From: a virus | Lineage: Duplodnaviria > Caudoviricetes | Direction: 5' to 3' (one strand) | DNA length: 64,000 bases | IMG/VR virus record: IMGVR_UViG_3300032070_000007 | Span: 2,892-66,891 of that record | Shown here: positions 5,947 through 62,139 of the stretch, one piece after another | Layout of the letters: each line of letters starts with the position of its first letter | Numbering within the stretch: position 1 is the first letter of the stretch | The notes under the pieces: model-generated | Seen by the model: the letters and a program-made list of their open reading frames with translations, nothing else | What the model was told of the DNA's origin: nothing | The model's database searches: none | Made by a program: the position numbers and the translations under genes

Positions 5947-6302
5947 TGTCAACTCATTTGGAACAAATAAAATCCCTTCTTTCTTTAACGGGTCAAGTTC
6001 ATAGTGAGGAGTTCCCGTATGAACGAATATATGTGTATTCTATAGTTACTCCTACAGGCGAGCTAGTTATAGGAGCACTTGGTAAGAAAGGAACTCGTGT
6101 TGTCGATGTAGCAGTACTTCCTGAATTTAGAAAGGAAGGAGTGGCTTCTGCATTAATCAAAATTGCGGAAGTTGACACTGCCTATGTGGTAAGTGAGGAA
6201 GCTGAAAACTTCTGGAGTCACATAGGTTGGTATTTTGTCTGTCCCATTATGGACAAGGAAGTTGAAGTGAAAGTATACTGTAAAAAGGGGAAGATCGTTT
6301 GA
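5946..6302 (+). CDS. GNAT-family N-acetyltransferase
   Basis: Acetyl-CoA motif A (VDVAVLPEFRKEGVASALI) and motif B (AENFWSHIGW). Confidence 0.8.
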   Translation: MSTHLEQIKSLLSLTGQVHSEEFPYERIYVYSIVTPTGELVIGALGKKGTRVVDVAVLPEFRKEGVASALIKIAEVDTAYVVSEEAENFWSHIGWYFVCPIMDKEVEVKVYCKKGKIV

Positions 6303-6715
6303 GCAATACTGAGGGAATAAAAGCTGCTGTTGGAGTAAGCTATAGGAAACATATTAGTGAGTACAGTAAGGAGCTTGTAGCGATACCGTTTGGTTTTCCG
6401 GGCAAACGCGAATTAGTGGAGCATGAAACTGATGAGCTAACATCTGTATGTCCGGTGACTGGATTGCCAGATTTCTATCATATGGTTATCAGTTACTTGC
6501 CGAAGGATTTGCTGGTAGAGCTGAAGTCATTAAAGTTCTACCTCATGCAATTCAGAGACGTTGGCATTTTGCACGAGGATTTGGCGCAGAAGATATTACA
6601 AGACTTTATTGCAGTAGTACATCCGGAAGTTTGTACAGTCGACTTGACAGCAGCTTCAAGAGGAGGAATAAGTACGCACGTAGTTGCGAGATATCCAGAG
6701 CCAGGAGGTGAGTAA
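6299..6715 (+). CDS. queF: preQ0 nitrile reductase QueF (preQ1 synthase)
   Basis: TSVCPVTGLPDF catalytic Cys/Asp, QueF motif VELKSLKFYL, HE, RGGI. Confidence 0.9.
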   Translation: MSNTEGIKAAVGVSYRKHISEYSKELVAIPFGFPGKRELVEHETDELTSVCPVTGLPDFYHMVISYLPKDLLVELKSLKFYLMQFRDVGILHEDLAQKILQDFIAVVHPEVCTVDLTAASRGGISTHVVARYPEPGGE

Positions 6716-6716
6716 T

Positions 6717-7502
6717 ATGCCTTGGGAAAAGGGACTGAATAAAGACAAACCCCCAGCTAAGACTAAGGAACAGTTGTTTACTGATATTCATGAGCTTGCA
6801 AAGAAGGCAGGTATAAAAATTGGAGTTCACGGAGTTGCTGAATCTGGTAAAACTCACTTCTGTTGCTCCTCACCACCGCCAGTCTATATACTAGAGACTG
6901 ATGATGGAGCTGCACAACTTGCGAACAATTTCCCATCCAAGAACATTAAGGTACTTAACTGCTATGTAACGACAGGAGACCCGCAGACGGAATGTAAGGC
7001 CTCATTAGACATGCTGAAAGAAGCGTTGGTTGCATTGAGTGACTTGAATGAGGGAACTATTTGCATTGATAGCGGTACAGATCTTTGGGAGTGGATTGGA
7101 GGAACTCTACGTTTGGAGATTTTGAAAGTTGACTTGGCAGCTAGAGTGGCCCCTGCTGACTATAAGTGGGCGAATGCGGAGTATCGGTCGATAATCATGA
7201 AGTGTCGGGCGATTAATGCTAACTTCGTCATTACGGCAATGGATGGGGAAGTATTCAGGGATGCTAAGTTGACGCCCACGAATGTGTATAAGGCAGAGTG
7301 GCAGAAGTGGACGCCAAGGTGGTTGGATTGCCAAATACGGTTGATGAAGGAAGAAACAAAGACTGGATATACGTTTAGGGCGTTCATTGAGAAGTTCAGG
7401 CATCACAGGTTGACAAATAGGGACTTTCTGAACTTAGACTTTGATGCATTATATGCAGTGCTTAAACCGTATCTAGTGAAACCGCCGGAGAGTGCAACGT
7501 AA
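6717..7502 (+). CDS. AAA ATPase (AAA_24/Sak4-like recombination protein)
   Basis: Walker A GVAESGKT, Walker B TICIDS; GGAGGTGA RBS before ATG 6717. Confidence 0.75.
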   Translation: MPWEKGLNKDKPPAKTKEQLFTDIHELAKKAGIKIGVHGVAESGKTHFCCSSPPPVYILETDDGAAQLANNFPSKNIKVLNCYVTTGDPQTECKASLDMLKEALVALSDLNEGTICIDSGTDLWEWIGGTLRLEILKVDLAARVAPADYKWANAEYRSIIMKCRAINANFVITAMDGEVFRDAKLTPTNVYKAEWQKWTPRWLDCQIRLMKEETKTGYTFRAFIEKFRHHRLTNRDFLNLDFDALYAVLKPYLVKPPESAT

Positions 7503-7754
7503 TGTTGAACAACGTACCTAGAAATCTTTGGTCGGTTGTAACATTCGGTCTCTTTCATTTTCAAGAAATTGAACGATTAGCAACAGTAATTTACAGGATC
7601 AAAATAGACGACAGAACTATGGGGACTACGAAATGAGAGCTAGAGCTGCGTGTGGACATATAGTGGAGATTCCATGCAACTGGAATATTAACGGAAGATG
7701 TGGAGCTGATACTTCACCATGCATAATAATCTCGTTAGTAAGGAGTGATCAAAA

Positions 7755-8120
7755 GTGACAGATGATGAGTTTGATGAGAAGTTGGGAATTACTGCAGATG
7801 CTATGATGAACTCGTTAGCTGCAAAGGCAGTACAAAAGGCTTGTAAAGAGGTACTTATGAAGGTACTTCGAAAGCATAATCTGCGTAAGGATAGTTGGCA
7901 TAGGACAACAAGTGTATTCTCAATGGGAGAGTTAGTACATAACAAGATGCACCGATTAAAAGAACTGTACCCTAAGATAGCGTTAGGAGGTTCAGAGGTA
8001 TTGAAAGAAGTCAATGATGAACTGGATGATATCATTGCATACAGTGCATTTCAGAAGTATGTCCTGAATGTCGATAAGTTGAGTAACCCTTACACAACAC
8101 CGGAGAGTGACACTGTTTAA
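7755..8120 (+). CDS. nucleotide-modification-associated all-alpha NTP pyrophosphatase-like protein (DUF1599/Nmad1-like)
   Basis: K..N...DSW...NKMHRL...ELDDIIAY pattern. Confidence 0.55.
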   Translation: MTDDEFDEKLGITADAMMNSLAAKAVQKACKEVLMKVLRKHNLRKDSWHRTTSVFSMGELVHNKMHRLKELYPKIALGGSEVLKEVNDELDDIIAYSAFQKYVLNVDKLSNPYTTPESDTV

Positions 8121-8198
8121 CTCCCGTAGAACGGTTAACTGCTTGATACCGGAGGCAGCATTAAGCAGGTTCGGATTCACCTCCTTTCCTGGCTCCTA

Positions 8199-8408
8199 TT
8201 GGTATCCTTTGACCCTACAGAGGGATTAGCAGTGGGTACAGGTTTAGTAGGAAGATTCGAGTACACTCCGGATAAAAAGGGCAAGTGTGAGAAGGGGCAT
8301 GATATGATGAAAATCGAGAGTGTGAAGTTGTTCTCGATAGGAAGGGATTGGACTGTGGAAGGATATTTTTACTGTCCAACCTGTAAACTTATTTACCAAA
8401 AGATGTAA
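8199..8408 (+). CDS. small Zn-ribbon protein
   Basis: CEKGH...CPTC; true start may be the GTG at 8232. Confidence 0.5.
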   Translation: MVSFDPTEGLAVGTGLVGRFEYTPDKKGKCEKGHDMMKIESVKLFSIGRDWTVEGYFYCPTCKLIYQKM

Positions 8409-8428
8409 TAGAGGTGAGAAGAGTGCAA

Positions 8429-8830
8429 ATGAAGAATATAACAAAAGTCCTTCACTTTGATGCGGCACACTATCTTGACAAAACATTTGGTAAATGTCAA
8501 AATCTACACGGTCATCGCTACTTCGTAGAGAACATAGTTGTAGGATTCGATGGTATTGTTGATTTCGGACTGATAAAGAAAGCTGTTGATAGTTTTGATC
8601 ACTGTTTGCTGATACCAGGAAACCACGAGGCATTTTGGAAGAATGTAGATACTTTAGCTAAACAATCCGACCTTCCTTTCATCATTAAGACAGTTGTTCT
8701 TAGTAGCATGTCTCTTGTTGAAAACATTGCCCAGGATTTAGCAATGCAGATATCAGCGATTCCGGGAGTACGTTCTGTTAGCTTTGACCTATATGAAGGA
8801 CATAACCAAGGTGTTCATGTTGATACTTAA
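8429..8830 (+). CDS. queD: 6-carboxy-5,6,7,8-tetrahydropterin synthase QueD
   Basis: FDAAH, CQNLHGHRY, VDFG, FDH, ENIA, LYE motifs. Confidence 0.92.
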   Translation: MKNITKVLHFDAAHYLDKTFGKCQNLHGHRYFVENIVVGFDGIVDFGLIKKAVDSFDHCLLIPGNHEAFWKNVDTLAKQSDLPFIIKTVVLSSMSLVENIAQDLAMQISAIPGVRSVSFDLYEGHNQGVHVDT

Positions 8831-8899
8831 TCTGTTGAGACGAAAGTCTCACTCTTTCCCCATATATTCCAGATAATAGTTAACATAGAGGAATTGAGA

Positions 8900-9031
8900 A
8901 TGTCGAGTAAGTCTAAGAGTAAGTGCTGTCCTCATTGTGGCACGGATCTTAGTGACTATACTCTTCCTTCAGATGAATATTGGAAAACTCGTTGTCCATA
9001 TTGTGGAGGTAAGTTGGATGCTAGTAAATGA
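8900..9031 (+). CDS. Zn-ribbon microprotein (43 aa, not in ORF track)
   Basis: MSSKSKSKCCPHCG...RCPYCGGKLDASK*, overlapping the queE start. Confidence 0.6.
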   Translation: MSSKSKSKCCPHCGTDLSDYTLPSDEYWKTRCPYCGGKLDASK

Positions 9032-9641
9032 AATCTTTGAAAGTGTTCAGGGAGAAGGTACTTTTCTAGGATACCCTGCACTCTTTATACGCCTACAGGG
9101 ATGCAATTTGAGTTGTCGGTTCTGTGACACAAAGTACGCGTTAGGGGAAGGTGGAATGGATGTTAAACTTGATAGCTTGGTTGCGTTAATCAGAAACTCC
9201 CCTTCCTATCATGTAGTGTTTACAGGAGGAGAACCCTTACTTCAACAGAAGGAAATTAGTGAGGTAATAAGAGAGGTTAATAGAGGTAAGTTTTATGAAG
9301 TAGAAACTAACGGAACAATCAAGCCTAATATTGAGTTTTTAGTTCACCTTTTCACAGTATCACCGAAAGATGATTTCCAAATTTCACCTAGCTTTTTCGA
9401 GATGCCGGGAGTGGTTTTTAAGTTCGTGGTCGATAAAGAGGAGGATTTGGAGAAAATCGAGAACTTCGTAGACTTACATGATATTACAAGACCGATATAC
9501 TTGATGCCACAAGCTACTACATTGTTGGAGCATAAGAAGAAGTTGCCGATGCTTTTTGAGTTCGTGAAAGTGCATCAAGGGCATTATAGAATTACGCCCA
9601 GGTTGCAGATCTTAGCCTACGGTAAGAGGAAGGGAGTTTAA
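9018..9641 (+). CDS. queE: 7-carboxy-7-deazaguanine synthase QueE (radical SAM)
   Basis: EIFESVQGEG, CNLSCRFCDT (CxxxCxxC), TGGEP, ETNG, TVSPK, LMPQ, PRLQ. Confidence 0.95.
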   Translation: MLVNEIFESVQGEGTFLGYPALFIRLQGCNLSCRFCDTKYALGEGGMDVKLDSLVALIRNSPSYHVVFTGGEPLLQQKEISEVIREVNRGKFYEVETNGTIKPNIEFLVHLFTVSPKDDFQISPSFFEMPGVVFKFVVDKEEDLEKIENFVDLHDITRPIYLMPQATTLLEHKKKLPMLFEFVKVHQGHYRITPRLQILAYGKRKGV

Positions 9642-9868
9642 TGCTAACACCTAAAGTTTACGTCATAAGCTCCACCAACCTTGTTACGCCGGAAGGCAAA
9701 GTGATTCGTAAAGACATTATGCAGGAAGTTGTTGACACTAATGGTGACTACTACTGTGTGGTATATAAGCAGTTGTCAAAGTGGGCACAAGAGTTTATGG
9801 GTACGTTGCAGAGCGAGTTTGTAGAGTATTTAGTAGAACCGGAGGCAAAAGCTTGTACGAGATGTTGA
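9641..9868 (+). CDS. hypothetical protein
   Basis: Start overlaps the queE stop. Confidence 0.55.
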   Translation: MLTPKVYVISSTNLVTPEGKVIRKDIMQEVVDTNGDYYCVVYKQLSKWAQEFMGTLQSEFVEYLVEPEAKACTRC

Positions 9869-10007
9869 GCAATCTAGGTGCAAACCTTTGCGCAAGGGAA
9901 ATAAGCAAACAAGTATGGACTGTGTATAAAGAGCAATCCTTCAGTGAGACGGAAGGAGACCCAGAGTGCGGTCGTCTTGTACAAGTTGCCATATCCGGTA
10001 TTAGGAG

Positions 10008-10283
10008 GTGTTAAAGTTGGTTAAAAAAGAAGCCAGAAAGCAACTTTTTCTAGAGGCAAACGATACTTTAATAATAAGGAACACAACCGCAAATGTAATG
10101 CGGTTAGAAACGGATAAGGACTATGTAGAAATTCCTCCAACCGAAGCGATAGTAGTAGTGCGCGAAACTATGTGGGTGAGTTACAGTGAGCACTCTAGAC
10201 AGTTATACAAACTCCTTCGCATGACTTTCTGGCAAAGGTTAAGGTGGGCACTTTCAAGAAAGGCAGTTGAGGTGATGGAATGA
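10008..10283 (+). CDS. hypothetical protein
   Basis: ORF within the co-directional gene run. Confidence 0.5.
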   Translation: MLKLVKKEARKQLFLEANDTLIIRNTTANVMRLETDKDYVEIPPTEAIVVVRETMWVSYSEHSRQLYKLLRMTFWQRLRWALSRKAVEVME

Positions 10284-10714
10284 ATCTCCTAAAGAAACTA
10301 CGTACCCTCATTCGTCGTCCTGTAGTAACCGTTAGGGAGCTACAAGACACCGGAGCAGTGCAGGTACAGCAGAAAGAGCAGAGTAGTGGAACAAAACTGA
10401 CTAAATCAGTACCCGCGGCTGAGCGTGTAGCGCTCAATAGAGTCCACGAAATGCGCCCTGTAAATGTTAAGCCTGCACATAAAATCTCTCCTAATATTAG
10501 CAAGGGAACGGAAAGTGGAAGTCCCTACAGTTTGGCTATGATTCCAAGGCAACGCGGTAATCAGCGGACGAATGCTGTAGCTACTCTCACCCGGAGGCCC
10601 TTGTCTAATATCCGTGCTGTACGGAAAATGAAGCACGGTCATCAATCACCATATTATCGGAAGAGCGTGAGAGCTAATGTCAAACCGGATGAAGAAGAGA
10701 CGGAGACCATTTAG
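10280..10714 (+). CDS. basic hypothetical protein
   Basis: GAGGTGA RBS; ATGA overlap with the upstream stop. Confidence 0.6.
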   Translation: MNLLKKLRTLIRRPVVTVRELQDTGAVQVQQKEQSSGTKLTKSVPAAERVALNRVHEMRPVNVKPAHKISPNISKGTESGSPYSLAMIPRQRGNQRTNAVATLTRRPLSNIRAVRKMKHGHQSPYYRKSVRANVKPDEEETETI

Positions 10715-11015
10715 TCCGTTCGTTTGCGAAGACTGCAAAGACGAGCGTGGTAAGCATAACGAGTGTATAGGGTGTTACTGCGATGTGTGAAAAACCGATA
10801 GAGGATAAAACTCTCTGTGGCTGCGAAGATTGCTGGGAGTGTAACCATCATAGTCACTCGCCTCCTCCAATGGAGGATAATAAGTCACAACGCGGGAGGC
10901 AAGAAGGGAAGGTTATGAGCTCAAACCTTTCTCTGATTGCTCTGCTAAGCCCCCATGTAGTGCGGGATTCCCTCCGTGGCTGGCGGGTGACATCTAAAGT
11001 TGGGAAGGAAGAGTC

Positions 11016-11198
11016 ATGAGTGAAAGTTACATTAAACGAAAGAAATTACAGGATATTGAAAAAATAGCTGAAGAACATGCTGCATGGTTTGTTGAAGTTG
11101 TTATACCAATGTTTAAGCCTATTGTCAAAGAAACCGCTAAGACATTTTTCCTTCACGGTTATAAACATAGAATTGATGAGGAAAAGGTGAAGAAGTAA
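11016..11198 (+). CDS. hypothetical protein
   Basis: Stop overlaps the thyX start. Confidence 0.55.
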   Translation: MSESYIKRKKLQDIEKIAEEHAAWFVEVVIPMFKPIVKETAKTFFLHGYKHRIDEEKVKK

Positions 11199-11797
11199 TG
11201 GAAGTCATTCTACTACGCTTTAGTCTCGATCCAGAACTACTTTGCACGCAAGCAATGTTAGGATGCCAAAGTACAAAAGCGGCGTTTGAAATTGAACCTG
11301 ATGCGGAACGTATCAATAGGATGATGACAATGGCAGTTACTACAGATGATGCTTCAGTCTTGGAACATGCTTCGTTTACCTTTAGTGTCAAAGGAATCAG
11401 TCGAGCATGCAGCCATCAGCTAGTGAGACATAGGATAGCAAGTTATAGTCAGCAGTCACAAAGACATGTGAATCCAACGAAGGTTCCTAATTGGTACTGT
11501 ACTGCTGAAACTATTGAGAAGTCAGGTCACGGTCCGGAGTTTCAGCAACTCATGAACTTATGTGCCAAAGAATACCAATCTTTGATTGATTCTGGTGTTC
11601 CGGAAGAAGACGCACGCTTCGTTCTACCAAATGCTTGCAAAACAAACATCGTTATAACCATGAACTGCCGTGAACTACGTCATTTCTTCAAGCTACGGTG
11701 CGCTAAGAAGGCACAGTGGGAGATCCGCGAAATGGCGAATAGAATGCTCGATCTGTGTATACAAAAAGCACCAACAATCTTTGGAGGCCTAAGATGA
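11198..11797 (+). CDS. thyX: flavin-dependent thymidylate synthase ThyX
   Basis: SVLEHASFTF, SRACSHQLVRHRIASYSQQSQR, EDARFVLP, AQWEIR. Confidence 0.96.
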   Translation: MEVILLRFSLDPELLCTQAMLGCQSTKAAFEIEPDAERINRMMTMAVTTDDASVLEHASFTFSVKGISRACSHQLVRHRIASYSQQSQRHVNPTKVPNWYCTAETIEKSGHGPEFQQLMNLCAKEYQSLIDSGVPEEDARFVLPNACKTNIVITMNCRELRHFFKLRCAKKAQWEIREMANRMLDLCIQKAPTIFGGLR

Positions 11798-12477
11798 AGG
11801 ACGTTCAAGAAGAGCAAGCTGAGGATCTAGGAATAATGGCTGGTATCACTAGTTACAGCATAGTGATAAAGTCCTCTAAGTGGACACTCTTCATTGAGTT
11901 GGAAGTGAAGGTTCCGATACTCAATAAACGGGGAGCACATATGAGCAGGTTGATATTCCCAGAGACGGTGAAGTGTGAGAGTGTTGAGCAGTTTATTAAC
12001 GATGCAAAGAAGTTGATAAAGGAAAAAACTGGCGTTTACCCCTACATCAAAATGGTGTTTAAGTTTCCGTGGAAGGATCAGTTTCCAACTATTATCGTCG
12101 AGAACTATATTGCCATAGGAAACGAATACACGTATATTATGAAAGGAATAACTGCGTGTCCTTGTTCAAAGGAAAGCATTGGTATAGGACATATGCAGAA
12201 GTGTGAGTTGAAGATAAAGATAAATGCTAAACTTCCACACCCTAAGTTTGAGGACATATTTAGGTTAATGGAAGGTTGCTTTTCTGCTTCGTTGACGGAG
12301 AAGCTAAAGAGAGATGAGGAAGCTGCTAAGATTAAGGAAGCTCAGGATAATGCAAAGTTTGTCGAAGATGTCGTAAGAAATGCTGTTAAGAGTATTCCTA
12401 ACATTAGGTACGTGAGAGCAGAGTCAGATGAAAGTATTCACAGTCATAAGGCAGTAGCGGAGTGGTGGAAGAGTTGA
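11794..12477 (+). CDS. folE2: GTP cyclohydrolase type IB (FolE2/MptA family)
   Basis: MKDVQ, RGAHMSRL, TACPCS, HMQ, KFVEDVVR, ESIHSH. Confidence 0.88.
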   Translation: MKDVQEEQAEDLGIMAGITSYSIVIKSSKWTLFIELEVKVPILNKRGAHMSRLIFPETVKCESVEQFINDAKKLIKEKTGVYPYIKMVFKFPWKDQFPTIIVENYIAIGNEYTYIMKGITACPCSKESIGIGHMQKCELKIKINAKLPHPKFEDIFRLMEGCFSASLTEKLKRDEEAAKIKEAQDNAKFVEDVVRNAVKSIPNIRYVRAESDESIHSHKAVAEWWKS

Positions 12478-12632
12478 CAGAGAATTGTGGAACCGGTTGT
12501 AGGGATCCACAGCATATGGTTAAGTGCGTGAAGTGTGGAGCTGAGTATCACGTAGGTCTTCAGCATAACTGTCCTACTTATATAAAGAGTAGTTATGAAA
12601 AGCAACGAAGTTTCGAGAAGGAAGTGATATAA
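12465..12632 (+). CDS. Cys/His-rich microprotein (not in ORF track)
   Basis: GTG-started ORF ...NCGTGC..H..KCVKCG..H...HNC... filling the gap after folE2. Confidence 0.45.
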   Translation: MEELTENCGTGCRDPQHMVKCVKCGAEYHVGLQHNCPTYIKSSYEKQRSFEKEVI

Positions 12633-12633
12633 T

Positions 12634-12834
12634 ATGAAAAGTGAAGAACTTTGTAAAAAGCTCCGAGAGATAACCGATGCTGTAAGGAAGGTTCCAGGCA
12701 TTCAAATTACAAGTGTTGATACTGGTATAGATATAGACAGAGTCTATCTCGTTGGAGAAATGGTACCGAAAATCCTTACAATGGAACTGATCGTAAAGAT
12801 CGGACTGAAACTTGAAGCAGAGGAGGTGACTTAG
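12634..12834 (+). CDS. hypothetical protein
   Basis: GGAAGTGA RBS; abuts queC. Confidence 0.6.
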   Translation: MKSEELCKKLREITDAVRKVPGIQITSVDTGIDIDRVYLVGEMVPKILTMELIVKIGLKLEAEEVT

Positions 12835-13557
12835 ATGGAAGTTGTAGTCACAAAATCTCAACGTTCAACGGTTGTAACACCAACATTTAGTAAACCTTCA
12901 ACAAAAGTTGTAATGTTATTGAGTGGGGGAGTTGACTCTGCAACTCTAGCATACTACTTGATGAAACAGCATCAAGAGTTGCATGCATTGACAGTTGATT
13001 ATGGGCAAAAGCACTATAAGGAAATTCAGGCAGCACAAGATATTGCTGATGCAGTAGGAATCAGTCAGAGGATATTAGATTTGAGTACGTTACAACCTCT
13101 GCTTAAAAGTGCATTGACTACTAATGATCCAATACCAGAAGGTCATTATACAGCTGAGAACCAGAAGTTAACAGTCGTACCAAATAGGAATGCAATACTT
13201 TTGAACATCGCTGCTGGCTATGCAATAAGCATAGGTGCTAATACAGTTGCGTACGCAGCACATAAGAATGATAGGGCAATTTATCCTGACTGCAGGCCGG
13301 AATTTGTAAGTGCATTACAAGCAGCATTGGATGTCGGGACGGATGCAGATTTACTGGTATACGCTCCATTCATCAATATGACAAAGGCACAAATTGTGGA
13401 ACTAGGTATAACATTGAACGTTCCCTATGAATTAACCTGGTCGTGCTATAAGGGTGAAGAGAGGGCGTGTGGCAGGTGTGGAACGTGTGTGGAAAGGCTG
13501 GAGGCATTTAAGTTGAATGGCGTGAAGGATCTGATAGAGTATGAGGGAGTAATATGA
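12835..13557 (+). CDS. queC: 7-cyano-7-deazaguanine synthase QueC
   Basis: LLSGGVDS, DYGQKH, VPNRN, YPDCRPEF, TWSCY...CGRCGTC. Confidence 0.97.
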   Translation: MEVVVTKSQRSTVVTPTFSKPSTKVVMLLSGGVDSATLAYYLMKQHQELHALTVDYGQKHYKEIQAAQDIADAVGISQRILDLSTLQPLLKSALTTNDPIPEGHYTAENQKLTVVPNRNAILLNIAAGYAISIGANTVAYAAHKNDRAIYPDCRPEFVSALQAALDVGTDADLLVYAPFINMTKAQIVELGITLNVPYELTWSCYKGEERACGRCGTCVERLEAFKLNGVKDLIEYEGVI

Positions 13558-13615: not shown

Positions 13616-14374
13616 GTGAAGTTAGCGATAATTTCGCCAATCACGCATCTGAATGAACTTAGTAACCTAGGGGACATTCAGTTTGCTCTTGGTCATGTTA
13701 AGGATCTTAAGTACATTGAGTACTATCGTGAGCAAGCAAAGCAAACGTATACTATTATGGATAACGGAAGTTATGAACTTGGCAAGAGCGTCAGTTTTGA
13801 CGACATATTCGAAGCAGCGGAAGAGATAAAGCCTGACGAAATCGTCGCACCGGATGTGCAGTGGAATCCAGTCGAGTCTCTAAATCTAACCCGACACTTC
13901 ATGAAATATGCGCATGGGCGCGGGTTACGAGATAAGTACAAGATTATGGTTGTTGTCTGGGCGTTTGACCCAGGAGACTTTCCGATGTGGTACAAGGAGT
14001 ACCTCAAGTTGAACCCCGATGTAATTGGTATCGGAAAATGGCTGTCAACGAAATTCCTAGCAAGGCCTAGTGTTGTTCAATTGTTGAAATATGAGCATAT
14101 GTGGAAGAGTGATATTGAGCACCATTTTCTGGGATGTGGTTTTCCTGGCGAAGCACTCCAACTGCATGATGAGGGGCGCTCAATGGACACTAGCGGACCA
14201 ATCGCCGATGCTATGAATGGGTTGAGATATGTGGAAGGTGAGGAATACTTAAACCTTCACACGAGTTCGTTGAAGAGGAGTTTGGACTTTAATGCCCGGT
14301 TAACACCTGAGCAACTCGAAATAGCAAAAGCAAACTGTCGGATAATGTTGGACTACGCGCATGGAGGAAAATAA
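13616..14374 (+). CDS. dpdA: DpdA/TGT-like 7-deazaguanine transglycosylase (subfamily undetermined)
   Basis: IMDNGSYE, VAPDV, HFLG and SMDTS match TGT-fold motifs; directly after queC. Confidence 0.72.
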   Translation: MKLAIISPITHLNELSNLGDIQFALGHVKDLKYIEYYREQAKQTYTIMDNGSYELGKSVSFDDIFEAAEEIKPDEIVAPDVQWNPVESLNLTRHFMKYAHGRGLRDKYKIMVVVWAFDPGDFPMWYKEYLKLNPDVIGIGKWLSTKFLARPSVVQLLKYEHMWKSDIEHHFLGCGFPGEALQLHDEGRSMDTSGPIADAMNGLRYVEGEEYLNLHTSSLKRSLDFNARLTPEQLEIAKANCRIMLDYAHGGK

Positions 14375-21261: not shown

Positions 21262-21265
21262 AAAT

Positions 21266-55868: not shown

Positions 55869-57425
55869 TTACATTCCTCTTATTGTTGGTGCTAAAATTT
55901 TCCGATAATACATAGGATGAAAAGGAATAGGCTCAACTGGTTTGCCTTTAAGTTCCCATACCAACTGTGCTAGTGCATCAGCGAGATCTTTAGCTCCTTT
56001 CCTAGGATGATCCACCTTTTGGCCCCTGTAAATTTCTAAATTCGTCAACTCATCCTTTAGTGCTTCGTGCTCATAACAGTCAACTTCATGGAGCCGCCAG
56101 GCCTCCTTAAGACGTTCGTGTTGCTGGAGTTTTACTACGTTGAATTCCACTTGAACTCCTGATTCTCGTATTTCAGCAATCGTTTCAGGGTAGTCCCAAC
56201 GGTCTACAATGAACTTGCTGATGTCGAAGCGTTTCTTTAAGGTTCCGATGAAGTACTTAACTTCTGTGGGGTCAACTTCAAGTTTTGGAGCGATCTTATG
56301 TAGCAGGTCTATGAATATGCGGCCGTCTTCAGTCAAATGACCTAACGCCAGACCAAAAGACTCAAATTTGGATGCCGGATCGCCTGTTAACACATAATCA
56401 AAACTCCTACTGCCCATCAACCAGTCCGCTATCTCGCCGTTTACTAGTACTGGATTCATTCTTTTCTTATTGAACTCGATTATCGAAACATCTGTATAAT
56501 ACTTTTCGATAGCACGGGAAGGTTGAGCCCCGTAATCTCGCCAAGCTGCGTCAGGATCCTGTGCAAAGTCGTCCTGCAGCATTGCTTCAGTGATGTTAGG
56601 ATTCATGTCCCAAGTCGCGTATTTGTATCCAAGCATAGTTTCGATACGTTTGGATTGTTCGTAAAGTTGATCTATGATGTCGCCTGAGTAGAGTGTTGAG
56701 GAAATAGCGACTCGTCTAGCTTTCAGCGCGGGTACCTTCTTGGTGCCACGACCAAGACCATGAAACACCGCCCAACCACTACGTCCACCTTTAGTATCCT
56801 GAAATCTACCTAACTCATCAAATAAAGCAGCTTTAACTGCCCTTCCAACCAATGAGGCACTATTTGACCCACCACACTTTATCGTTACGTGCTTTTGTGG
56901 GAAACTGAACTCATTATATCTTTCATCTGGATGTAACCATTGGAAGTATGGCGAGTTCTCTATCTTCCCTTTCTCTTGCGCGTATATGGTGTCGTGAGCT
57001 TGGTCATCGGAAGTAGCTACGTTAAGGACGAAAAATTCCGTACCCGAACCCGCACCGTAAAAGTGTACAGGGTCGTCAAGTGACAAGAGTTCGAATGCCT
57101 GCTGGAGTCCGATGCAGGAAGTGAGGAATGTTTTGCCTGAATTCATTCCAGCCTCTATTATCAAATCGTTATACTGTTGGACGTGAGCTTTAGTGAACTC
57201 TTCCATCTTATCGGTACGCAAAGCATCCTCACGTAACCCTATCCATTCATCAATTGACATGGCTTTTGGGACTCCCCAGATAAATCGTCTGATGACGTCT
57301 TTTTCGAGAGGCCACATCTCCTGTCCCAAGAAGTACTTGTCCTCACAGAAAAATATAGGATCAAACCTAGCCTGCAGCATCTTATGCATTTGCTCTTCGG
57401 GAGCTAGGTCTTCCCAGTTTTTCAT
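55869..57425 (-). CDS. terL: terminase large subunit
   Basis: GMNSGKT, LFDE, GDPA, KDLADA. Confidence 0.9.
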   Translation of the reverse strand: MKNWEDLAPEEQMHKMLQARFDPIFFCEDKYFLGQEMWPLEKDVIRRFIWGVPKAMSIDEWIGLREDALRTDKMEEFTKAHVQQYNDLIIEAGMNSGKTFLTSCIGLQQAFELLSLDDPVHFYGAGSGTEFFVLNVATSDDQAHDTIYAQEKGKIENSPYFQWLHPDERYNEFSFPQKHVTIKCGGSNSASLVGRAVKAALFDELGRFQDTKGGRSGWAVFHGLGRGTKKVPALKARRVAISSTLYSGDIIDQLYEQSKRIETMLGYKYATWDMNPNITEAMLQDDFAQDPDAAWRDYGAQPSRAIEKYYTDVSIIEFNKKRMNPVLVNGEIADWLMGSRSFDYVLTGDPASKFESFGLALGHLTEDGRIFIDLLHKIAPKLEVDPTEVKYFIGTLKKRFDISKFIVDRWDYPETIAEIRESGVQVEFNVVKLQQHERLKEAWRLHEVDCYEHEALKDELTNLEIYRGQKVDHPRKGAKDLADALAQLVWELKGKPVEPIPFHPMYYRKILAPTIRGM

Positions 57426-57982
57426 GCAGCAACTATCTCCTGCATTTCAATAATTCTAGTATCCTGCAACTCCTTCAGCTTTGCCATTAATCGAGATTGG
57501 CAGTGTGGGCATAGGACTCCGTTAACTAACTCAACTAACTTTGTGTATCTTATGTTGAGTTGATTTATTTGAATTGTAGGTGAATTCGTAAGTGAACCCT
57601 CGAGCCTACAGAGGAATTCGGCAGTTTGTCGGGCCTCCGACGCGATTGCCCTAATTCTTCCTTCAACAGCCTCTTCTATTGGGAACTCCAGAAGGGCCTC
57701 ACAGCGAGTTAATAACTTACCAAAAATATCCTTCATGCGCCCAACTTGCGTAGAGACGTCTACTACTACTTTCTCAACAGCCGGCGAAACCCTTTCTGCA
57801 AGTGGTCGCTGGACATCACGTGTAAAATGAATGGAATAGTACGCACTTGAACACCCCAATCGTTTAGCGGCTTCCTCTTGGTTTATCTTTTTCGCAAAGA
57901 ACAAGAGGTCCACCTCTCTGACGTCAGCGTGTGCACAACATTTACAGGAACGTCTGTTAAGGCGATAGTTGAGGGTTTCCAT
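57422..57982 (-). CDS. terminase small subunit (putative)
   Basis: CKCC plus HTH N-terminus and helical C-terminus; directly upstream of terL. Confidence 0.6.
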   Translation of the reverse strand: METLNYRLNRRSCKCCAHADVREVDLLFFAKKINQEEAAKRLGCSSAYYSIHFTRDVQRPLAERVSPAVEKVVVDVSTQVGRMKDIFGKLLTRCEALLEFPIEEAVEGRIRAIASEARQTAEFLCRLEGSLTNSPTIQINQLNIRYTKLVELVNGVLCPHCQSRLMAKLKELQDTRIIEMQEIVAA

Positions 57983-58061
57983 ATTTCATTAATGTGAGTG
58001 GTAAACTATTTAAAATGTGTGGTTTAGGTGTTTATTCGGGGAGTATTAGGGGTACTTGTAG

Positions 58062-58128
58062 GAAACGGTTCCACGGTTAAACGGTTAATGAAATTTATAT
58101 ATGTAGTACAACCGTTTATCCGTTTTTT
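58062..58128. promoter_or_regulatory. second ACGGTT/AACCGTT repeat element with TATA core
   Basis: ACGGTT three times, then TTTATATATGTAGT, then AACCGTTTATCCGTTTT. Confidence 0.5.
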
Positions 58129-58283
58129 CTGAAATTTTTTGCCCAAAAATTCTATAGTACCCCAGCACTGCAACATAGGTCAACGCAAGTCCGTAACCAA
58201 TACTTCCTAACTTTACTCTGGGAATTCCGCAGAGTAAATTCTCGTAGAGATGACATATTCCGTCATTTTTATATATTAAATAT

Positions 58284-58430
58284 TAAGATTCCTTACTTAA
58301 GTATTACGACTTAAGATTACGGAGTTTATATTAAATATTACGACTTATGACGTAAGACTTGAGTATTAAGATAAAGGACTGTATATTAAATATTAAGACT
58401 TAAGTATTGTTAATTAAGTCTTAAGATTAC
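58284..58430. repeat. TAAGAC/TACGAC/CTTAAG short-repeat array (left)
   Basis: Multiple direct and inverted copies. Confidence 0.6.
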
Positions 58431-58585
58431 GGAAGTAATATTGTATAGTAAGTAATAGGAGTTAGGAAAGTATATAAATAAATTAATATTGAATAGTAAG
58501 TATTAAGATATAAAAGTTTAAATGGAAATGTAAATTTTAATATTATAAAAAGTTTAAAATTAAGGAAAGTTTAAATGTAAATGTA

Positions 58586-58604
58586 GAAAAGATTTATATA
58601 TAAG
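58586..58604 (+). promoter_or_regulatory. BRE-TATA promoter of the C-free operon
   Basis: GAAAAGATTTATATATAAG about 45 nt upstream of ATG 58640. Confidence 0.7.
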
Positions 58605-58639
58605 TTTGTATATTATATAATTAAGGAAAGTGAAAAAAA

Positions 58640-58876
58640 ATGAAAATAAGTGAAAAAGTTTGGGAAAGTGGAAAAAGTTTGAATGGAAATGAGAAAAAGG
58701 AAAAAATATTGGAGGTTTTGGTAAAGGAAGGAATATGTGATATTGAGGAGATAAGGAAAGTAGGAAAAGAAAAGTGGATATGGGGAAGTTTGAAAAGTTT
58801 GGAAGAAGAAGGATTAGTGGAAAGTAGAAAAGTAGGAAAGAAGAAGTTTTATAGGATAAAGGGGGTGGAAAATTGA
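58640..58876 (+). CDS. small winged-helix protein encoded without C
   Basis: Aligns by eye with the 59805 and 61894 paralogs (WESG...KILE...KW..G.LK.L.E.G.VE..K.GKK..YR). Confidence 0.8.
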   Translation: MKISEKVWESGKSLNGNEKKEKILEVLVKEGICDIEEIRKVGKEKWIWGSLKSLEEEGLVESRKVGKKKFYRIKGVEN

Positions 58877-59196
58877 AATTTGAGAATTGGAGTGATAAGA
58901 GAATAAAAGAGGAAAATAGGAAAAGAGAAGGAATAAAGGAGGGTATGAAAATGAAAAGTTGGAAAGAAGTAAAAGAAGAATGTAAGGAAAATGGAGTAGA
59001 TATGAATAGGTTGAATTGGGTAGATAAAAGAAAAGGAGGAAGAAGAAGGAAAGTTGTAGGAATAGGAGGAAGTGAGAAAGAAAAAGAGATAATGGAAAGA
59101 AATGGATTTAGGAAATATAAAAGTGTGGAAGTAGGAATGAGTAGAGGATATGGATATTGGTGTTGGGTAAGGTTTGAAAAGGAGGTGGAAAAATGA
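58873..59196 (+). CDS. basic hypothetical protein encoded without C
   Basis: GGGGGTGG RBS, TTG start, coupled to both neighbours. Confidence 0.7.
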   Translation: MKFENWSDKRIKEENRKREGIKEGMKMKSWKEVKEECKENGVDMNRLNWVDKRKGGRRRKVVGIGGSEKEKEIMERNGFRKYKSVEVGMSRGYGYWCWVRFEKEVEK

Positions 59197-59396
59197 GTTA
59201 TAAAAGTTGGGGAGGAAGAAAAATAGTTAGGAGAAAAGATGTGAAAGGAAAATGTGGAGTTTGTGGAAAAGAGGAAGTGGAAATGATAGAATTGGAAAGG
59301 AAAGAAGGAGAAAGTGAGGAAATAGGATTAGTGATGGAAGTTTGTAAGAGTTGTAAGTATGTAATAGATTGGGGATTAGGAAAAGAGGATTGGTAG
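59193..59396 (+). CDS. Zn-ribbon protein encoded without C
   Basis: GGAGGTGG RBS; CGVCG...CKSC. Confidence 0.75.
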   Translation: MSYKSWGGRKIVRRKDVKGKCGVCGKEEVEMIELERKEGESEEIGLVMEVCKSCKYVIDWGLGKEDW

Positions 59397-59416
59397 AAGG
59401 ATATTAAGTAAGAAAG

Positions 59417-59426
59417 TTTTTTTTTT
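59417..59426 (+). terminator. oligo-T terminator
   Basis: T10 run 20 nt after the last stop of the operon. Confidence 0.7.
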
Positions 59427-59454
59427 GTAAGTTTGGATTTTGGAAATTTAGTAT

Positions 59455-59670
59455 CGTAAATCGTACGACTTAAGTCTTACTTCTTAATACTTCATACAAC
59501 TCACCTCACCCTCCCCAAATCTTAAGACTTAAGACTTCAGAAAGTGTCGTAAGTCTTAAGACTCAAGTCTTAATATACATCTTTCCAAAGTTCCTCTCTG
59601 TTTCCATTATAACGGAAAGTTCCAATAATATATAAATACTTTCCCTTGGTATCGTAAGTCTTACGACACG
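59455..59670. repeat. TAAGAC/GTCTTA palindromic array (right)
   Basis: AGTCTTAAGACT, TAAGACTCAAGTCTTA, TCGTAAGTCTTACGA; further copies at 60196-60260. Confidence 0.65.
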
Positions 59671-59745
59671 GAAGTTTACACTTTTATATAAACTTTTAAA
59701 TGTTTAGGAGTAAGGAAAGTTAAAAAGTTTACACTTTTATGTTGA

Positions 59746-59762
59746 CAAAATTTATATACTAG
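59746..59762 (+). promoter_or_regulatory. BRE-TATA promoter
   Basis: CAAAATTTATATACT upstream of 59805; similar CAAAGTTTATATATT at about 60714. Confidence 0.65.
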
Positions 59763-59804
59763 AAAGTATATATTATAAGTGGAAATAAAAGGAGGTGAAA
59801 AGGA

Positions 59805-60050
59805 ATGCAAATAAATGCGGAAGAATGGGAAGCGGGAACTGCAGTTTCGGCAAGCGAAAATAAGGAAGCAATTCTGAAAGCGTTTGCAAAAGTGAAGGGC
59901 AAAGGAATGGATATGAAGGAAATTGGAAAGCTAAGCGGACTAAAGTGGCCATATGGAGCAGTAAAGGCTTTAGTGGAAGATGGAAAGCTGGAACGCAAGC
60001 AGTTCGGAAAGAAGTTTGGGTATAGGATGGTAGAAGTTAAGGAGGAATAA
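59805..60050 (+). CDS. small winged-helix protein (paralog)
   Basis: GGAGGTGA RBS; GMDMKEIGKLSGLKW...VKALVEDGKLERKQFGKKFGY. Confidence 0.8.
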   Translation: MQINAEEWEAGTAVSASENKEAILKAFAKVKGKGMDMKEIGKLSGLKWPYGAVKALVEDGKLERKQFGKKFGYRMVEVKEE

Positions 60051-60765
60051 ACCTCCTAACTTTCCATCCTCCAAACTCCAACCTTTGTTTGAAATCCAAC
60101 CGTGCAAAGTCGGAATTGTAGAACTTTGGCGGCGATGGGGTGAGCCCAACCATATGGCTGCCGGTAGTGTGGGAACCCGGGGCATGTCGTAAATCCTAAG
60201 ACTCAAGTCTTACTACTTAAGTCTTAAGGTACTCATCTGAACTCCTAAGACTCAAGTAACATACCTTACGATTACAATTTGCGTACGACCTAGATCCTGT
60301 ATGACGGGCTTCCAAAAACGTTTCCAACATAAAAACGGTGATACTACTATATGTTTTTTTATGAGCCGTTTAAACGGTTAACCGTTGCATCTGAACACCT
60401 AAGACTCAATACACTATCCTTCCGTTCTTCCCGTATAGTAGAGGACTTAGTACTTTCCCATATTTCCACTCTTTCCCATATATAAATAAAGTTTACTTGA
60501 GAATGTAAACGTCTTGTGGTGAGATAGGCATATATTTCTAGGCTCGTAAACATATGGGGTTTACATAAAGATGTAAACTTCCTTATGTGGCTGAGGCGCA
60601 TCTTCTTACTTTTAATATGGAGGTTTAATTGAATATGTAAATTTACATTTTTATGTAAACTTTTAATATGGTCATGTTTTAGGCTTCATCGTAGGTTTAC
60701 AGCATCGTGTAGACAAAGTTTATATATTTGAAAATTAATTTTACTTTGTACTTAAGGGACTCAAA

Positions 60766-61512: not shown

Positions 61513-61845
61513 ATGGTAACTGAGGAAGAAATGATAGACCAGATAGTCATTGCGGAAAGCAAAGAGGAGTTTGATGAGTCAGTTCATATACTTGAAAAGA
61601 TAGCAAAGGTATATGGATACACATGTGAGATGACGGATGATGGGAACTGGATACTTTCAAATCTAGGAACAGAAACCAAAATAGAAGTACTGTTCGATTC
61701 TAGTAGAGGAGGAGACGTTCCAATGTGGTTGACGGTTAACGATAAGACAACTACTGAGCTTGTGGATCCAGACGCTCCTAGAAAGATAGTTGAGAAGTGC
61801 ATAGCGTTCATGAAGGAACATAAGGACTCCCCTTCGAGTCGTTGA
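61513..61845 (+). CDS. acidic hypothetical protein
   Basis: GGGGTGA RBS. Confidence 0.65.
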   Translation: MVTEEEMIDQIVIAESKEEFDESVHILEKIAKVYGYTCEMTDDGNWILSNLGTETKIEVLFDSSRGGDVPMWLTVNDKTTTELVDPDAPRKIVEKCIAFMKEHKDSPSSR

Positions 61846-61893
61846 AAAGTACGACGAGACCTTTTTGGTAGGGAGCACTAGAATGGAGGTGAT

Positions 61894-62139
61894 ATGATGC
61901 CAATAATTGATGAAGAGGAATGGGAAAGTGGAACTGCTTCTACTTCTGGCGCCACTGAATCAATACTGGAAGCGTTCAAGAACTTAGGAGCAAACAAGGG
62001 CATGGACATGGCGGAAGTCAAGAAGATCACTGGACTCAAATGGATCTTTGGTCCCATGAAGCAGCTGGTTGAGGCCGGCAAGTTGGAGCGCAAGAAATTC
62101 GGCAAGCGGTTCGCGTATAGGCTTGTAGCCCAAGAGTAG
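61894..62139 (+). CDS. small winged-helix protein (paralog)
   Basis: Close paralog of 59805; followed by a T-run at about 62147. Confidence 0.8.
   Translation: MMPIIDEEEWESGTASTSGATESILEAFKNLGANKGMDMAEVKKITGLKWIFGPMKQLVEAGKLERKKFGKRFAYRLVAQE

What the first reader, a model, noticed from the sequence alone, without database searches (positions are those of the whole stretch)
58431..59454. A complete three-gene operon written in three letters: 1024 nt with no C (G-free template) in a virus that encodes guanine hypermodification
Seen: the + strand has no C between 58430 and 59455. Even at 10% C the chance is about 1e-47. The tract covers one transcription unit: BRE-TATA (58586), three coupled ORFs with RBSs (wHTH, basic protein, Zn ribbon) and a T10 terminator. 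All three proteins lack Ala, Pro, Thr, Gln and His, the residues whose codons need C; Ser uses AGT, Arg AGR and Leu TTR. It sits at the head of the early arm, divergent from terS, where the genome end may lie. Known: the genome encodes a Que/DpdA pathway that replaces DNA guanine with 7-deazaguanine derivatives. Inference: modified G in the template impedes the host transcription machinery, so a starter operon with a G-free template is read first and its products enable reading of the rest. Alternatives: a C-free strand contains no G/C-containing palindrome, so first-entering DNA escapes restriction; or the C-free mRNA evades CTP depletion or a C-specific RNase. I know of no described precedent.
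Basis: partly seen in the sequence, partly recalled or inferred. Interest (0 to 1): 0.97.

Follow-up and report, generated by a model that had tools for sequence, protein, structure and literature searches.

The report
Cytosine-free early operon in virus
A tailed, archaeal-type virus and its relatives keep the first small genes next to their DNA-packaging genes completely free of the letter C, a selected and apparently unpublished way of writing genes whose cause is still open.

Summary
The + strand has no C from 58431 to 59454 (1024 nt); the next-longest C-free run in the window is 60 nt. It is not an assembly artefact: contigs of a second sample and study cover both borders and most of the tract with at most one difference.

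Selection maintains it. Relatives with terminase identity of 36-86% carry C-free blocks of 0.86-2.1 kb at the same place, divergent from the small-terminase gene. Against the closest relative, 0 of 140 differences involve C, while the genes evolve as proteins (pN/pS about 0.3).

The block is a slot, not a fixed gene set, because its gene content differs between relatives.

The virus encodes QueC/D/E/F, FolE2 and a full-length homologue of DpdA3, the transglycosylase type reported to replace every G. The link to guanine modification is suggestive but weak: 6 of 24 DpdA3-like carriers have a tract, against 0 of 15 other QueC carriers, and 13 of 15 complete carriers have none.

This scan has noted the same phenomenon on other DNA. 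I found no description of it in print.

The parts
58431..59454 (+). Cytosine-free block (template strand free of G)
   Evidence: a 1024-nt run, next-longest 60 nt; present in contigs of two further samples.
58394..58423 (.). Two TAAGWCTTA palindromes directly upstream of the block's sharp 5' border
   Evidence: all 7 matches in the window lie within 58394-60226 (about 1 expected by chance). Matches at 58394 and 58415.
58465..58482 (+). First BRE/TATA-like element, about 40 nt inside the block
   Evidence: Read. The element is conserved in L001. Promoter function is inferred.
58587..58603 (+). BRE/TATA-like element about 40 nt before the ORF1 start codon
Evidence: Read. Function is inferred.
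58640..58876 (+). ORF1, a 78-aa winged-helix DNA-binding protein written without C
   Evidence: Pfam TrmB at E 0.0015, below the cut-off. Model with pLDDT 77 and helix-helix-helix-strand-strand order. Foldseek gives ArsR/SmtB and AspA chains at TM 0.6-0.7 and E 2.5e-3. pN/pS 0.31. 7 of 7 orthologues lack A, P, T, Q and H.
58945..59196 (+). ORF2, a basic protein of about 83 aa with the invariant motif WVDKRKGGRRRK and no known fold (the listed ORF starts at the TTG at 58873)
   Evidence: Model with pLDDT 78. No structural match (best E 0.056). pN/pS 0.28.
59193..59396 (+). ORF3, a 67-aa protein with CxxC...CxxC (zinc-ribbon-like)
   Evidence: Only a weak Pfam DUF5679 match. Not conserved in L001, which has a different G-rich small ORF there.
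59417..59426 (+). T10 run, an archaeal-type terminator candidate; the block ends 28 nt later
   Evidence: Read. No hairpin terminator was found in 57900-60900.
59471..59663 (.). Four TAAGWCTTA palindromes directly downstream of the block; a fifth lies at 60218
59805..60050 (+). wHTH paralogue 2, with C (10% C overall, 6% at third codon positions)
61894..62139 (+). wHTH paralogue 3, with ordinary C (19%)
57422..57982 (-). Small terminase-like gene, divergent from the block
   Evidence: 76% identical to the L001 gene upstream of terL. terS-like hits lie next to the tracts of L002 and G002.
55869..57425 (-). Large terminase
   Evidence: precomputed PF27249.
13616..14374 (+). DpdA3-like DNA-guanine transglycosylase
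   Evidence: The only tblastn hits in 'phages' are in Bacillus, Weizmannia, Campylobacter and Flavobacterium immuto phages. The family profile against the annotated DpdA of immuto gives 99.2% probability and E 6.8e-20 over 239 columns.
6299..13557 (+). preQ0/preQ1 synthesis genes: QueF 6299-6715, QueD-like 8414-8830, QueE 8937-9641, FolE2 11755-12477, QueC 12835-13557
   Evidence: Pfam and PHROG QueD-like.

Best explanation
The tract is the immediate-early transcription unit or units at the head of the virus's early arm, next to the packaging genes. It is a position-defined slot that runs from about the promoter to just past the terminator. Selection removes every C from the coding strand there, so the strand read by RNA polymerase has no G.

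The most likely reason is as follows. By homology to DpdA3 plus a preQ0/preQ1 pathway, this virus probably replaces all or most G in its DNA with a 7-deazaguanine derivative. Each modified G in the template or promoter then carries a small risk of failed initiation, pausing or a stop for the unprepared host polymerase. Removing G from the template strand makes the first messages fast and safe.

The cost of a C is largest near the promoter, because a stop there loses everything downstream. That would explain the gradient of C after the block.

The products are small nucleic-acid-binding proteins: a winged helix, a basic protein and a zinc-ribbon-like protein. They are probably the first regulators.

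Shown: the tract, its conservation, selection against C, its position, and the presence of the modification genes. Inferred: the early timing, complete G replacement, and any effect of modified G on an archaeal polymerase.
For: 1. Selection against C. There are 0 C in 1024 nt. Against L001, 0 of 140 differences in 657 aligned tract positions involve C. In flanking genes the figures are 17 of 43, 91 of 180 and 162 of 388. All 13 strain variants in run X2 avoid C.

2. The ORFs are real genes. pN/pS is 0.31 and 0.28. 7 of 7 orthologues of ORF1 and 6 of 7 homologues of ORF2 lack A, P, T, Q and H. 9 of 25 family representatives at 50% identity or less lack them entirely, and they lie together on one side of the family tree.

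3. Position and strand. Of 160 terL-anchored loci, the four with a tract (L001, L002, L006, L085) have it upstream of terS/terL, on the strand opposite to them. In the whole record G002 the tract abuts a terS-like gene although terL lies 19 kb away. The terS-side border is sharp in all six genomes. Wherever ORFs are present, the coding strand is the C-free one.

4. Gradient. C at third codon positions goes 0, 0, 0, 6, 10, 13 and then about 20% along the arm.

5. Link to G modification. The Que genes and a DpdA3 homologue are present. DpdA3 is reported to modify CP220, phiST and immuto genomes completely (PMC10516641, passages read). Tracts occur in 6 of 24 DpdA3-like carriers examined whole or nearly whole (G000, G002, G055, G012, G052, G074). 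They occur in 0 of 15 QueC carriers without such a gene. This gives hypergeometric p = 0.04 by my arithmetic, and the cases are not phylogenetically independent.

6. Independent lineages. G012 (60% GC) has a 253-nt tract with 1 C, divergent from a terS-like gene. The cultured phage immuto has one nearly C-free gene, immuto26A_128.

7. Literature. Bulky 7-substituted 7-deazaguanines in templates almost abolished transcription by two bacterial polymerases (PMC4838386, passages read).
Against: - 13 of 15 complete genomes with a DpdA3-like gene have no tract. Bacillus phage BSP7 has none, and Campylobacter phage CJLB-12 has only a 140-nt run.
- G004 has the same architecture and the same gene type, yet its first divergent genes have 11-12% C.
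- Other genes that must be read from the incoming DNA, such as PolB, have 16% C, so modified G cannot be a strong block.
- In PMC4838386 the effect was on initiation. No shorter transcripts were seen, and unsubstituted and methyl 7-deazaG were tolerated.
- DpdA was not detected in G001, which has a tract but is only 69% complete.
- G052's 198-nt tract has no convincing ORF and lies on the terS strand.
- Neither complete replacement of G nor early expression has been measured for this virus.
- My DpdA3-like class rests on homology at 23-33% identity.
Confidence: 0.38

Rival explanations
1. The hazard acts on the RNA. The message is kept free of C so that something acting on C in RNA, or on CTP, cannot stop it. 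Candidates are a C-specific ribonuclease (for example a CRISPR-associated or toxin RNase), a chain-terminating CTP analogue such as a viperin product, or CTP depletion.
For: The block matches transcription units, and the coding strand is always the C-free one. A per-C hazard explains both the near-absolute purging and the promoter-proximal gradient. Rare single C's are tolerated inside coding sequence (G002, L006, G012), as expected for a strong but not absolute per-site cost.
Against: No C-directed enzyme was recognised among the ORFs I scanned in Pfam or PHROGs; many ORFs have no match. The host is unknown and was not searched. Genes just downstream have ordinary C and would be hit just the same. 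The block seems to include promoter DNA upstream of the likely start site and 28-40 nt beyond the T-run, which an RNA-only cause does not require; start sites were not measured. This cause does not explain the enrichment among DpdA3-like carriers.
Confidence: 0.2
2. The cause lies in the DNA at the leading end. The block is the last DNA packaged and the first to enter the cell, as in the T5 first-step-transfer region or the T7 leading end. The strand asymmetry would then serve entry, packaging or escape from a nuclease that reads one strand, and the genes merely live there.
For: The block always adjoins terS. It has a sharp border on the terS side. Palindrome arrays lie at both borders. Long ORF-free C-free stretches occur in G002 (about 1 kb), L001 (about 1 kb of short repeats) and G052. 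Gene content varies, as in a positional slot.
Against: The genome ends are not known. The contigs look circular, with a 156-nt overlap, and the contig data gave no terminal-repeat signal in X2. Avoiding restriction sites does not need every C removed. In G052 the C-free strand is inverted relative to terS. In immuto the C-poor gene sits among small genes at 68 kb of a 160-kb record, with no packaging gene annotated within the 66.5-71.5 kb stretch I looked at.
Confidence: 0.15
3. Selection is for an unstructured or factor-proof message. Without C the RNA cannot form G-C pairs, and it offers no C-rich loading site for a termination factor (Rho in bacteria; possibly the archaeal factor).
For: Predicted folding energy of the tract RNA is -0.017 kcal/mol per nt, against -0.16 to -0.23 for eleven other genes. 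Long untranslated C-free leaders in G002 and L001 would otherwise be exposed.
Against: Low C would suffice for either effect. The purging of every C (0 of 140 differences) and the loss of five amino acids go beyond what this needs. The sequence preference of the archaeal termination factor was not checked here.
Confidence: 0.1
4. The cause is mutation, not selection. One strand is repeatedly single-stranded and loses C by deamination, as in the vertebrate mitochondrial gradient.
For: C at third positions recovers gradually over about 3 kb after the block. The block lies near a possible origin or packaging centre.
Against: The borders are sharp, going from 17-25% to 0% within one 200-nt step. 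T is not enriched: the tract is 44-50% A and 17-25% T. Replacements relative to the paralogues are often C-to-A type, for example Ala/Thr/Gln to Glu/Lys. The state has persisted across family members less than 50% identical. Mitochondrial strands never reach zero (my knowledge).
Confidence: 0.04

Closest known systems
Synthetic C-less and G-less cassettes for in vitro transcription (also used with archaeal RNA polymerase)
   Same: A promoter followed by hundreds of bases whose non-template strand lacks one base, so the polymerase needs only three NTPs. 13 papers pair 'C-less cassette' with 'archaeal' (search listing).
   Different: Those are man-made, non-coding and usually far shorter. This one is natural, encodes three proteins under purifying selection, and is conserved in relatives.
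[quoted passage not shown]
   Same: The virus has a full-length DpdA3 homologue plus FolE2, QueD, QueE, QueC and QueF. immuto itself has one nearly C-free gene.
   Different: In the passages I read, the paper does not mention base-free genes or effects on transcription. The DNA of this virus has not been analysed. Most DpdA3-like carriers that I examined lack a tract.
First-step-transfer (pre-early) region of phage T5 and the leading end of T7 (my knowledge, not tested here)
   Same: A short block of small early genes at the genome end beside the packaging site, flanked by repeats and palindromes, transcribed inward.
   Different: No base is excluded in T5 or T7. The ends and the entry order of this virus are unknown.
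Motif-free genes that escape sequence-specific attack (ACA-less, MazF-resistant messages; restriction-site avoidance). Recalled, and named in earlier notes of this scan.
   Same: Selection removes a target from a gene while keeping it coding.
   Different: Those remove a 3-6-nt motif. Here a whole base and five amino acids are removed over 1-2 kb.
Earlier unpublished notes of this scan on other DNA (for example e1-6023379, which is the G001 record, and e1-5817284, e1-5744422, e1-5731922)
   Same: Small, swappable early genes written without C in T4-like and Flavobacterium-type phages and in archaeal viruses, often with DpdA3-type genes.
   Different: Those are AI notes, not publications. Of their claims I re-derived only the G001 tract, the immuto gene and the DpdA3 homology.

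Membership tests
DpdA3 DNA-guanine transglycosylase (window 13616-14374) | Full-length homology to a DpdA3 named in the literature | tested here: met
   hhalign of the family profile A3 against the annotated DpdA of immuto gives probability 99.2%, E 6.8e-20, 239 columns and 25% identity. The only tblastn hits in 'phages' are in Bacillus BSP7-like, Weizmannia, Campylobacter and immuto phages.
DpdA3 DNA-guanine transglycosylase (window 13616-14374) | Distinct from the TGT-Pfam-type DpdA1/2 and from DUF6610-type DpdA4 | tested here: met
   0 of 6 family members match PF01702 or PF20314 at E of 1 or less. The criteria for the other subfamilies are taken from PMC10516641.
DpdA3 DNA-guanine transglycosylase (window 13616-14374) | Complete replacement of G in virion DNA | not testable with these tools
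   Needs LC-MS or raw nanopore signal; the virus is uncultured.
DpdA3 DNA-guanine transglycosylase (window 13616-14374) | Co-occurrence with 7-deazaguanine synthesis genes | tested here: met
   QueF, QueE, FolE2 and QueC; QueD-like.
Winged helix-turn-helix regulators of ArsR/TrmB/MarR type (ORF1) | Three helices followed by a beta-hairpin wing | tested here: met
   The model has H16-30, H35-42, H48-57, E60-65 and E68-73, with pLDDT 77.
Winged helix-turn-helix regulators of ArsR/TrmB/MarR type (ORF1) | Significant sequence or structure match to family members | tested here: inconclusive
   Pfam TrmB scores 18.8 bits, below the 25.6 cut-off. The best Foldseek E-value is 2.5e-3 at TM 0.66-0.70, with none at 1e-3 or better.
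C-less cassette (functional analogue) | No C in the non-template strand from the promoter to the end of the unit | tested here: met
C-less cassette (functional analogue) | Transcription proceeds without CTP and stops at the first C | not testable with these tools
   A biochemical assay is needed.
Leading-end / first-step-transfer early region (T5-like) | Lies at the physical genome end that enters first | not testable with these tools
   Only contigs were available. The assembly has a 156-nt end overlap far from the tract.
Leading-end / first-step-transfer early region (T5-like) | Flanked by repeat or palindrome arrays, next to the packaging genes | tested here: met
Deamination (mitochondrial-type) strand gradient | Gradual borders, excess T on the depleted strand, never complete loss | tested here: not met
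   Sharp borders, T at 17-25%, and 0 C in 1024-2108 nt.

The most novel reading that the evidence does not exclude
Viruses that hypermodify guanine pay a transcriptional price for it. They solve this with a position-defined 'three-letter' slot: the first genes read from the incoming modified genome are written so that the template strand holds none of the modified base. This forces a 15-amino-acid protein alphabet that has been kept for a long evolutionary time. If so, base-free tracts would mark immediate-early genes and would predict which base a virus modifies. They would also show that host RNA polymerases, archaeal ones included, are sensitive to 7-deazaguanine adducts.
Probability: 0.3. 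Interest if true: 0.92.

Novelty: categorically new. Interest (0 to 1): 0.86.

Why it matters
Natural genes written with three bases and 15 amino acids, kept so by selection across deeply diverged viruses, are not described in the papers I could search. They show that small functional, foldable proteins can do without Ala, Pro, Thr, Gln and His.

They also mark a strong, still unidentified, base-specific hazard at the very start of infection. If the hazard is the virus's own guanine modification, that would be the first evidence that DNA hypermodification constrains transcription. It would also give a sequence-only marker of immediate-early genes in uncultured viruses.

If the hazard is a host factor acting on C or CTP, it points to an unknown defence.

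The cultured phage immuto carries one such gene, so the question can be tested at the bench.

Tried and rejected
**Artefact.** Rejected. Contigs of a different sample and study bridge both borders, and relatives carry the same feature.

**Chance or low complexity.** Rejected for the coding part. The tract has 28-36% G and encodes conserved proteins. The roughly 1-kb repeat array inside L001's tract is low-complexity, and I do not count it as independent evidence.

**Terminal repeat.** In run X1 the 1762-nt contig that starts at 58460 has twice the depth of the 59-kb contig. In X2 a 7.9-kb contig runs through at single depth. I therefore read the X1 doubling as a second strain sharing the cassette, not as a terminal repeat.

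**RNA evidence.** No RNA holder was listed, so nothing can be said about expression.

**Close relatives among cultured viruses.** There was no DNA match and no capsid-protein match in 'phages'. The terminase matched only at 26% identity or less.

**Host.** The genome-contig scan gave only distant terminases (33% or less), mostly in bacterial MAGs, and no tract in those loci. The atlas puts Bathyarchaeota among the clusters nearest to QueC, which is a lead only. No tRNA genes were found.

**Fold of ORF2.** No structural match.

**A conserved 'enabler' protein across lineages.** Not found. The slot contents differ.

**Broad survey of IMG/VR for base-free tracts.** Not possible with the tools as allowed. 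The association test therefore rests on 39 whole or near-whole records. These were chosen through QueC or DpdA-like hits and by record length and completeness, and the counts are not corrected for shared ancestry. From I dropped two long multi-domain proteins (P0109, P0110) before counting 9 of 25. Supplementary tables of PMC10516641 list the DpdA subfamily members; they were not seen and may bear on the DpdA3 assignment.
Full report
**1. The observation**

The window has 20.2% C. Its + strand has no C from 58431 to 59454 (1024 nt). The next-longest C-free run is 60 nt, and no other base is missing for more than 51 nt.

The window is bases 2892-66891 of a single 66,891-nt virus contig. Its ends overlap by about 156 nt with one mismatch, so the assembly is effectively circular. 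No other 300-nt window of the genome has 5% or less of any base.

Contigs of a second sample and study (X2) bridge the left border (58209-58488, 1 other letter) and the right border (58629-60100, 0 other letters). A third run holds parts of the tract without differences. The 13 strain variants listed inside the tract are all exchanges among A, G and T. The tract is real DNA.

**2. Anatomy**

The block contains the following:
- TATA-like boxes at 58470-58482 and 58592-58602;
- three tightly packed ORFs with purine-rich ribosome-binding sites;
- a T10 run at 59417-59426, with no hairpin.

ORF1 (78 aa) is a winged-helix protein. The evidence is a weak TrmB match, a model with pLDDT 77 and the expected order of helices and strands, and ArsR/SmtB- and AspA-like structural matches at TM 0.6-0.7 with E-values only around 3e-3.

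ORF2 most likely starts at 58945. Its family keeps the invariant motif WVDKRKGGRRRK. It folds confidently (pLDDT 78) but matches no solved structure.

ORF3 has two CxxC pairs.

Together the ORFs use 15 amino acids. Seven copies of the palindrome TAAGWCTTA occur in the window, against about one expected by chance. All lie between 58394 and 60226: two just before the block and four just after it.

Two further paralogues of ORF1 lie downstream, with 10% and 19% C.

The rest of the genome is that of a tailed virus: terminase, tail tube, family-B polymerase, ERCC4 and PD-(D/E)XK nucleases, a UvrD helicase, ThyX and a MazG-like enzyme. An archaeal host is suggested by the promoter and terminator style and by weak leads. 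It is not shown.

**3. Relatives**

The large terminase has homologues from 87% identity downward. This gave 160 loci totalling 1.81 Mb.

Runs of 120 nt or more that lack one base occur in 4 of the 160 loci. These are L001 (2108 nt; terL 86% identical), L085 (1163 nt; 36%), L006 (868 + 909 nt split by one base; 36%) and L002 (859 + 257 + 155 nt; 38%). None occurs in the other 156. In all four the tract lies upstream of terS/terL, on the opposite strand, and holds small ORFs on the C-free strand.

Whole records add the following:
- G002 (95 kb, complete): 1928 + 158 nt split by one C, starting right next to a terS-like gene although terL is 19 kb away.
- G001 (the record behind L085): 1163 nt.
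- G004 and G003: no tract.

The border on the terS side is sharp in all six genomes, falling from 17-25% C to 0%. The far border is sharp in four and leaky in two.

The gene content differs. L001 shares ORF1 and ORF2 but has another third gene and about 1 kb of short repeats. L006, L085 and L002 hold other small Cys-rich proteins. L006 also has a 177-aa protein, and one of its C-free genes has a paralogue with ordinary C just outside the block. G002 has about 1 kb without ORFs and then a 268-codon C-free gene. The C-free property therefore belongs to a position, not to particular genes.

**4. Selection**

Window and L001 differ at 140 of 657 aligned tract positions, and none of the differences involves C. 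In the neighbouring wHTH2, terS and terL regions, 17 of 43, 91 of 180 and 162 of 388 differences involve C.

Within an A/G/T-only mutation model, pN/pS is 0.31 for ORF1 and 0.28 for ORF2.

All 7 orthologues of ORF1 in the large protein collection lack A, P, T, Q and H. So do 6 of 7 homologues of ORF2.

A profile search of 1.84 billion representatives found 27 proteins. After dropping two long unrelated-looking ones, 9 of 25 have none of the five residues, and the rest have 4-27%.

In a tree, the ten 15-letter members (including ORF1) sit on one side, together with two members that have a few such residues. The ordinary paralogues, including the window's two, sit on the other side. Support is 91/85, and shared composition may help to pull the 15-letter members together. 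The state is old.

C at third codon positions rises 0, 0, 0, 6, 10, 13 and then about 20% along the arm.

**5. The guanine-modification link**

Pfam confirms QueF, QueE, FolE2, QueC and ThyX, plus a GNAT next to QueF. PHROGs gives a QueD-like match.

The 252-aa protein at 13616-14374 has no Pfam match. Its only tblastn hits among 50,697 phage records are in Bacillus BSP7-like phages, a Weizmannia phage, Campylobacter phages and Flavobacterium phage immuto, where the hit is the annotated DpdA. A profile of it and five relatives aligns with that protein over its full length at 99.2% probability.

According to PMC10516641 (passages read), this DpdA3 subfamily completely modifies the genomes of CP220, phiST and immuto. 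Other subfamilies modify 0.1-30% of G.

**6. My test of the link**

I examined two sets of IMG/VR records, chosen for length and completeness:
- Of 19 QueC-carrying records (990 kb), only G012 has a tract: 253 nt with one C, in a 60%-GC genome, divergent from a terS-like gene.
- Of 18 records with a DpdA3-like gene (15 of them at least 97% complete), G055 (the virus of L006), G052 (198 nt) and G074 (219 nt, AT-rich) have one. 13 of the 15 complete records have none.

Counting all whole or near-whole records, 6 of 24 DpdA3-like carriers have a tract, against 0 of 15 QueC carriers without such a gene. This gives p = 0.04 without correction for shared ancestry.

Among cultured phages, immuto has one nearly C-free gene (immuto26A_128; 381 nt with 2-3 C). 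Campylobacter phage CJLB-12 has only a 140-nt run, and Bacillus phage BSP7 has none.

The link is therefore real enough to keep, but it is neither necessary nor sufficient.

**7. Mechanism**

The facts to explain are:
- a strand-specific, nearly absolute exclusion of C;
- exclusion that starts at about the promoter and ends just after the terminator;
- a decaying after-effect;
- a fixed place beside terS;
- variable gene content;
- enrichment in viruses with DpdA3-like genes.

A per-site hazard during transcription fits best, whether at template G or at RNA C. I favour template G (confidence 0.38) because it is the only reading that uses the modification link. It also has some support in print: bulky 7-substituted 7-deazaguanines nearly abolished transcription by two bacterial polymerases, although at initiation and not at elongation (PMC4838386, passages read).

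Against this reading, most carriers lack tracts, and other early genes have ordinary C. The hazard must therefore be small per site, and the benefit limited to the very first messages.

The rivals are an RNA-level hazard, a leading-end DNA function, an unstructured or termination-proof message (the tract RNA is predicted to be about ten times less structured than other genes), and mutation pressure. They are weighed in their own sections.

**8. Novelty**

Four literature searches found only synthetic C-less cassettes and unrelated uses of the words. One abstract states that natural nucleic acids generally lack long three-letter stretches (PMC6526412, search listing).

This scan has noted the same phenomenon before on other DNA, including the G001 record and several phages, with the cause left open. 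Those notes gave me the DpdA3 lead, which I then tested as described above.

Noticed in passing
window 58640-62139: The winged-helix family occurs three times in the early arm. Its C content rises from copy to copy (0, 10 and 19%). The family as a whole splits into a 15-letter branch and an ordinary branch.
   Followed up: yes
L001 2240-3270 (minus strand): About 1 kb of short, imperfect 9-12-nt repeats built around TAATTGA lies inside the relative's C-free block, upstream of the conserved promoter. Its function is unknown; it may be binding sites or a long leader.
   Followed up: no
G002 75000-75990: About 1 kb of G/T-rich, ORF-free, C-free sequence precedes a 268-codon C-free gene. It starts right at a TATA-like box next to a terS-like gene.
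   Followed up: partly
G012 48231-48483: A 60%-GC phage-like genome with a DpdA3-like gene has a 61-codon gene with a single C. The gene starts at a -35-like TTGAAA and ends at a hairpin terminator that does contain C. It is divergent from a terS-like gene.
   Followed up: partly
MW353175.1 68298-68678: Cultured Flavobacterium phage immuto has one nearly C-free gene (immuto26A_128, hypothetical protein) among small genes. This offers a bench system.
   Followed up: partly
window 5946-6715: A GNAT acetyltransferase gene abuts queF.
   Followed up: no
window 14424-15023: A LAGLIDADG-like ORF (E 3e-4, below the cut-off) lies between the DpdA3-like gene and PolB. The terminase of G001 is 846 aa and carries intein/LAGLIDADG Pfam hits.
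   Followed up: no
window 21236-21589: A MazG-like nucleotide pyrophosphohydrolase lies at the end of the + strand arm. immuto has a similar enzyme two genes before its DpdA. Its substrate is unknown.
   Followed up: no
window 58460-60221: In run X1 a 1762-nt contig covering the block has twice the depth of the main 59-kb contig, and contigs break at 58460-58489 in both X1 and X2. I read this as strains sharing a cassette. A terminal repeat was not supported in X2.
   Followed up: partly
L007 / G004, genes 5827-3935 (minus strand of L007): A relative without a C-free block has at the same place a series of five paralogous genes of about 100 codons. The first two have 11-12% C and the later ones 16-19%.
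   Followed up: no
window 53037-54422: A ChaB domain lies at the N-terminus of a 461-aa protein in the head module.
   Followed up: no
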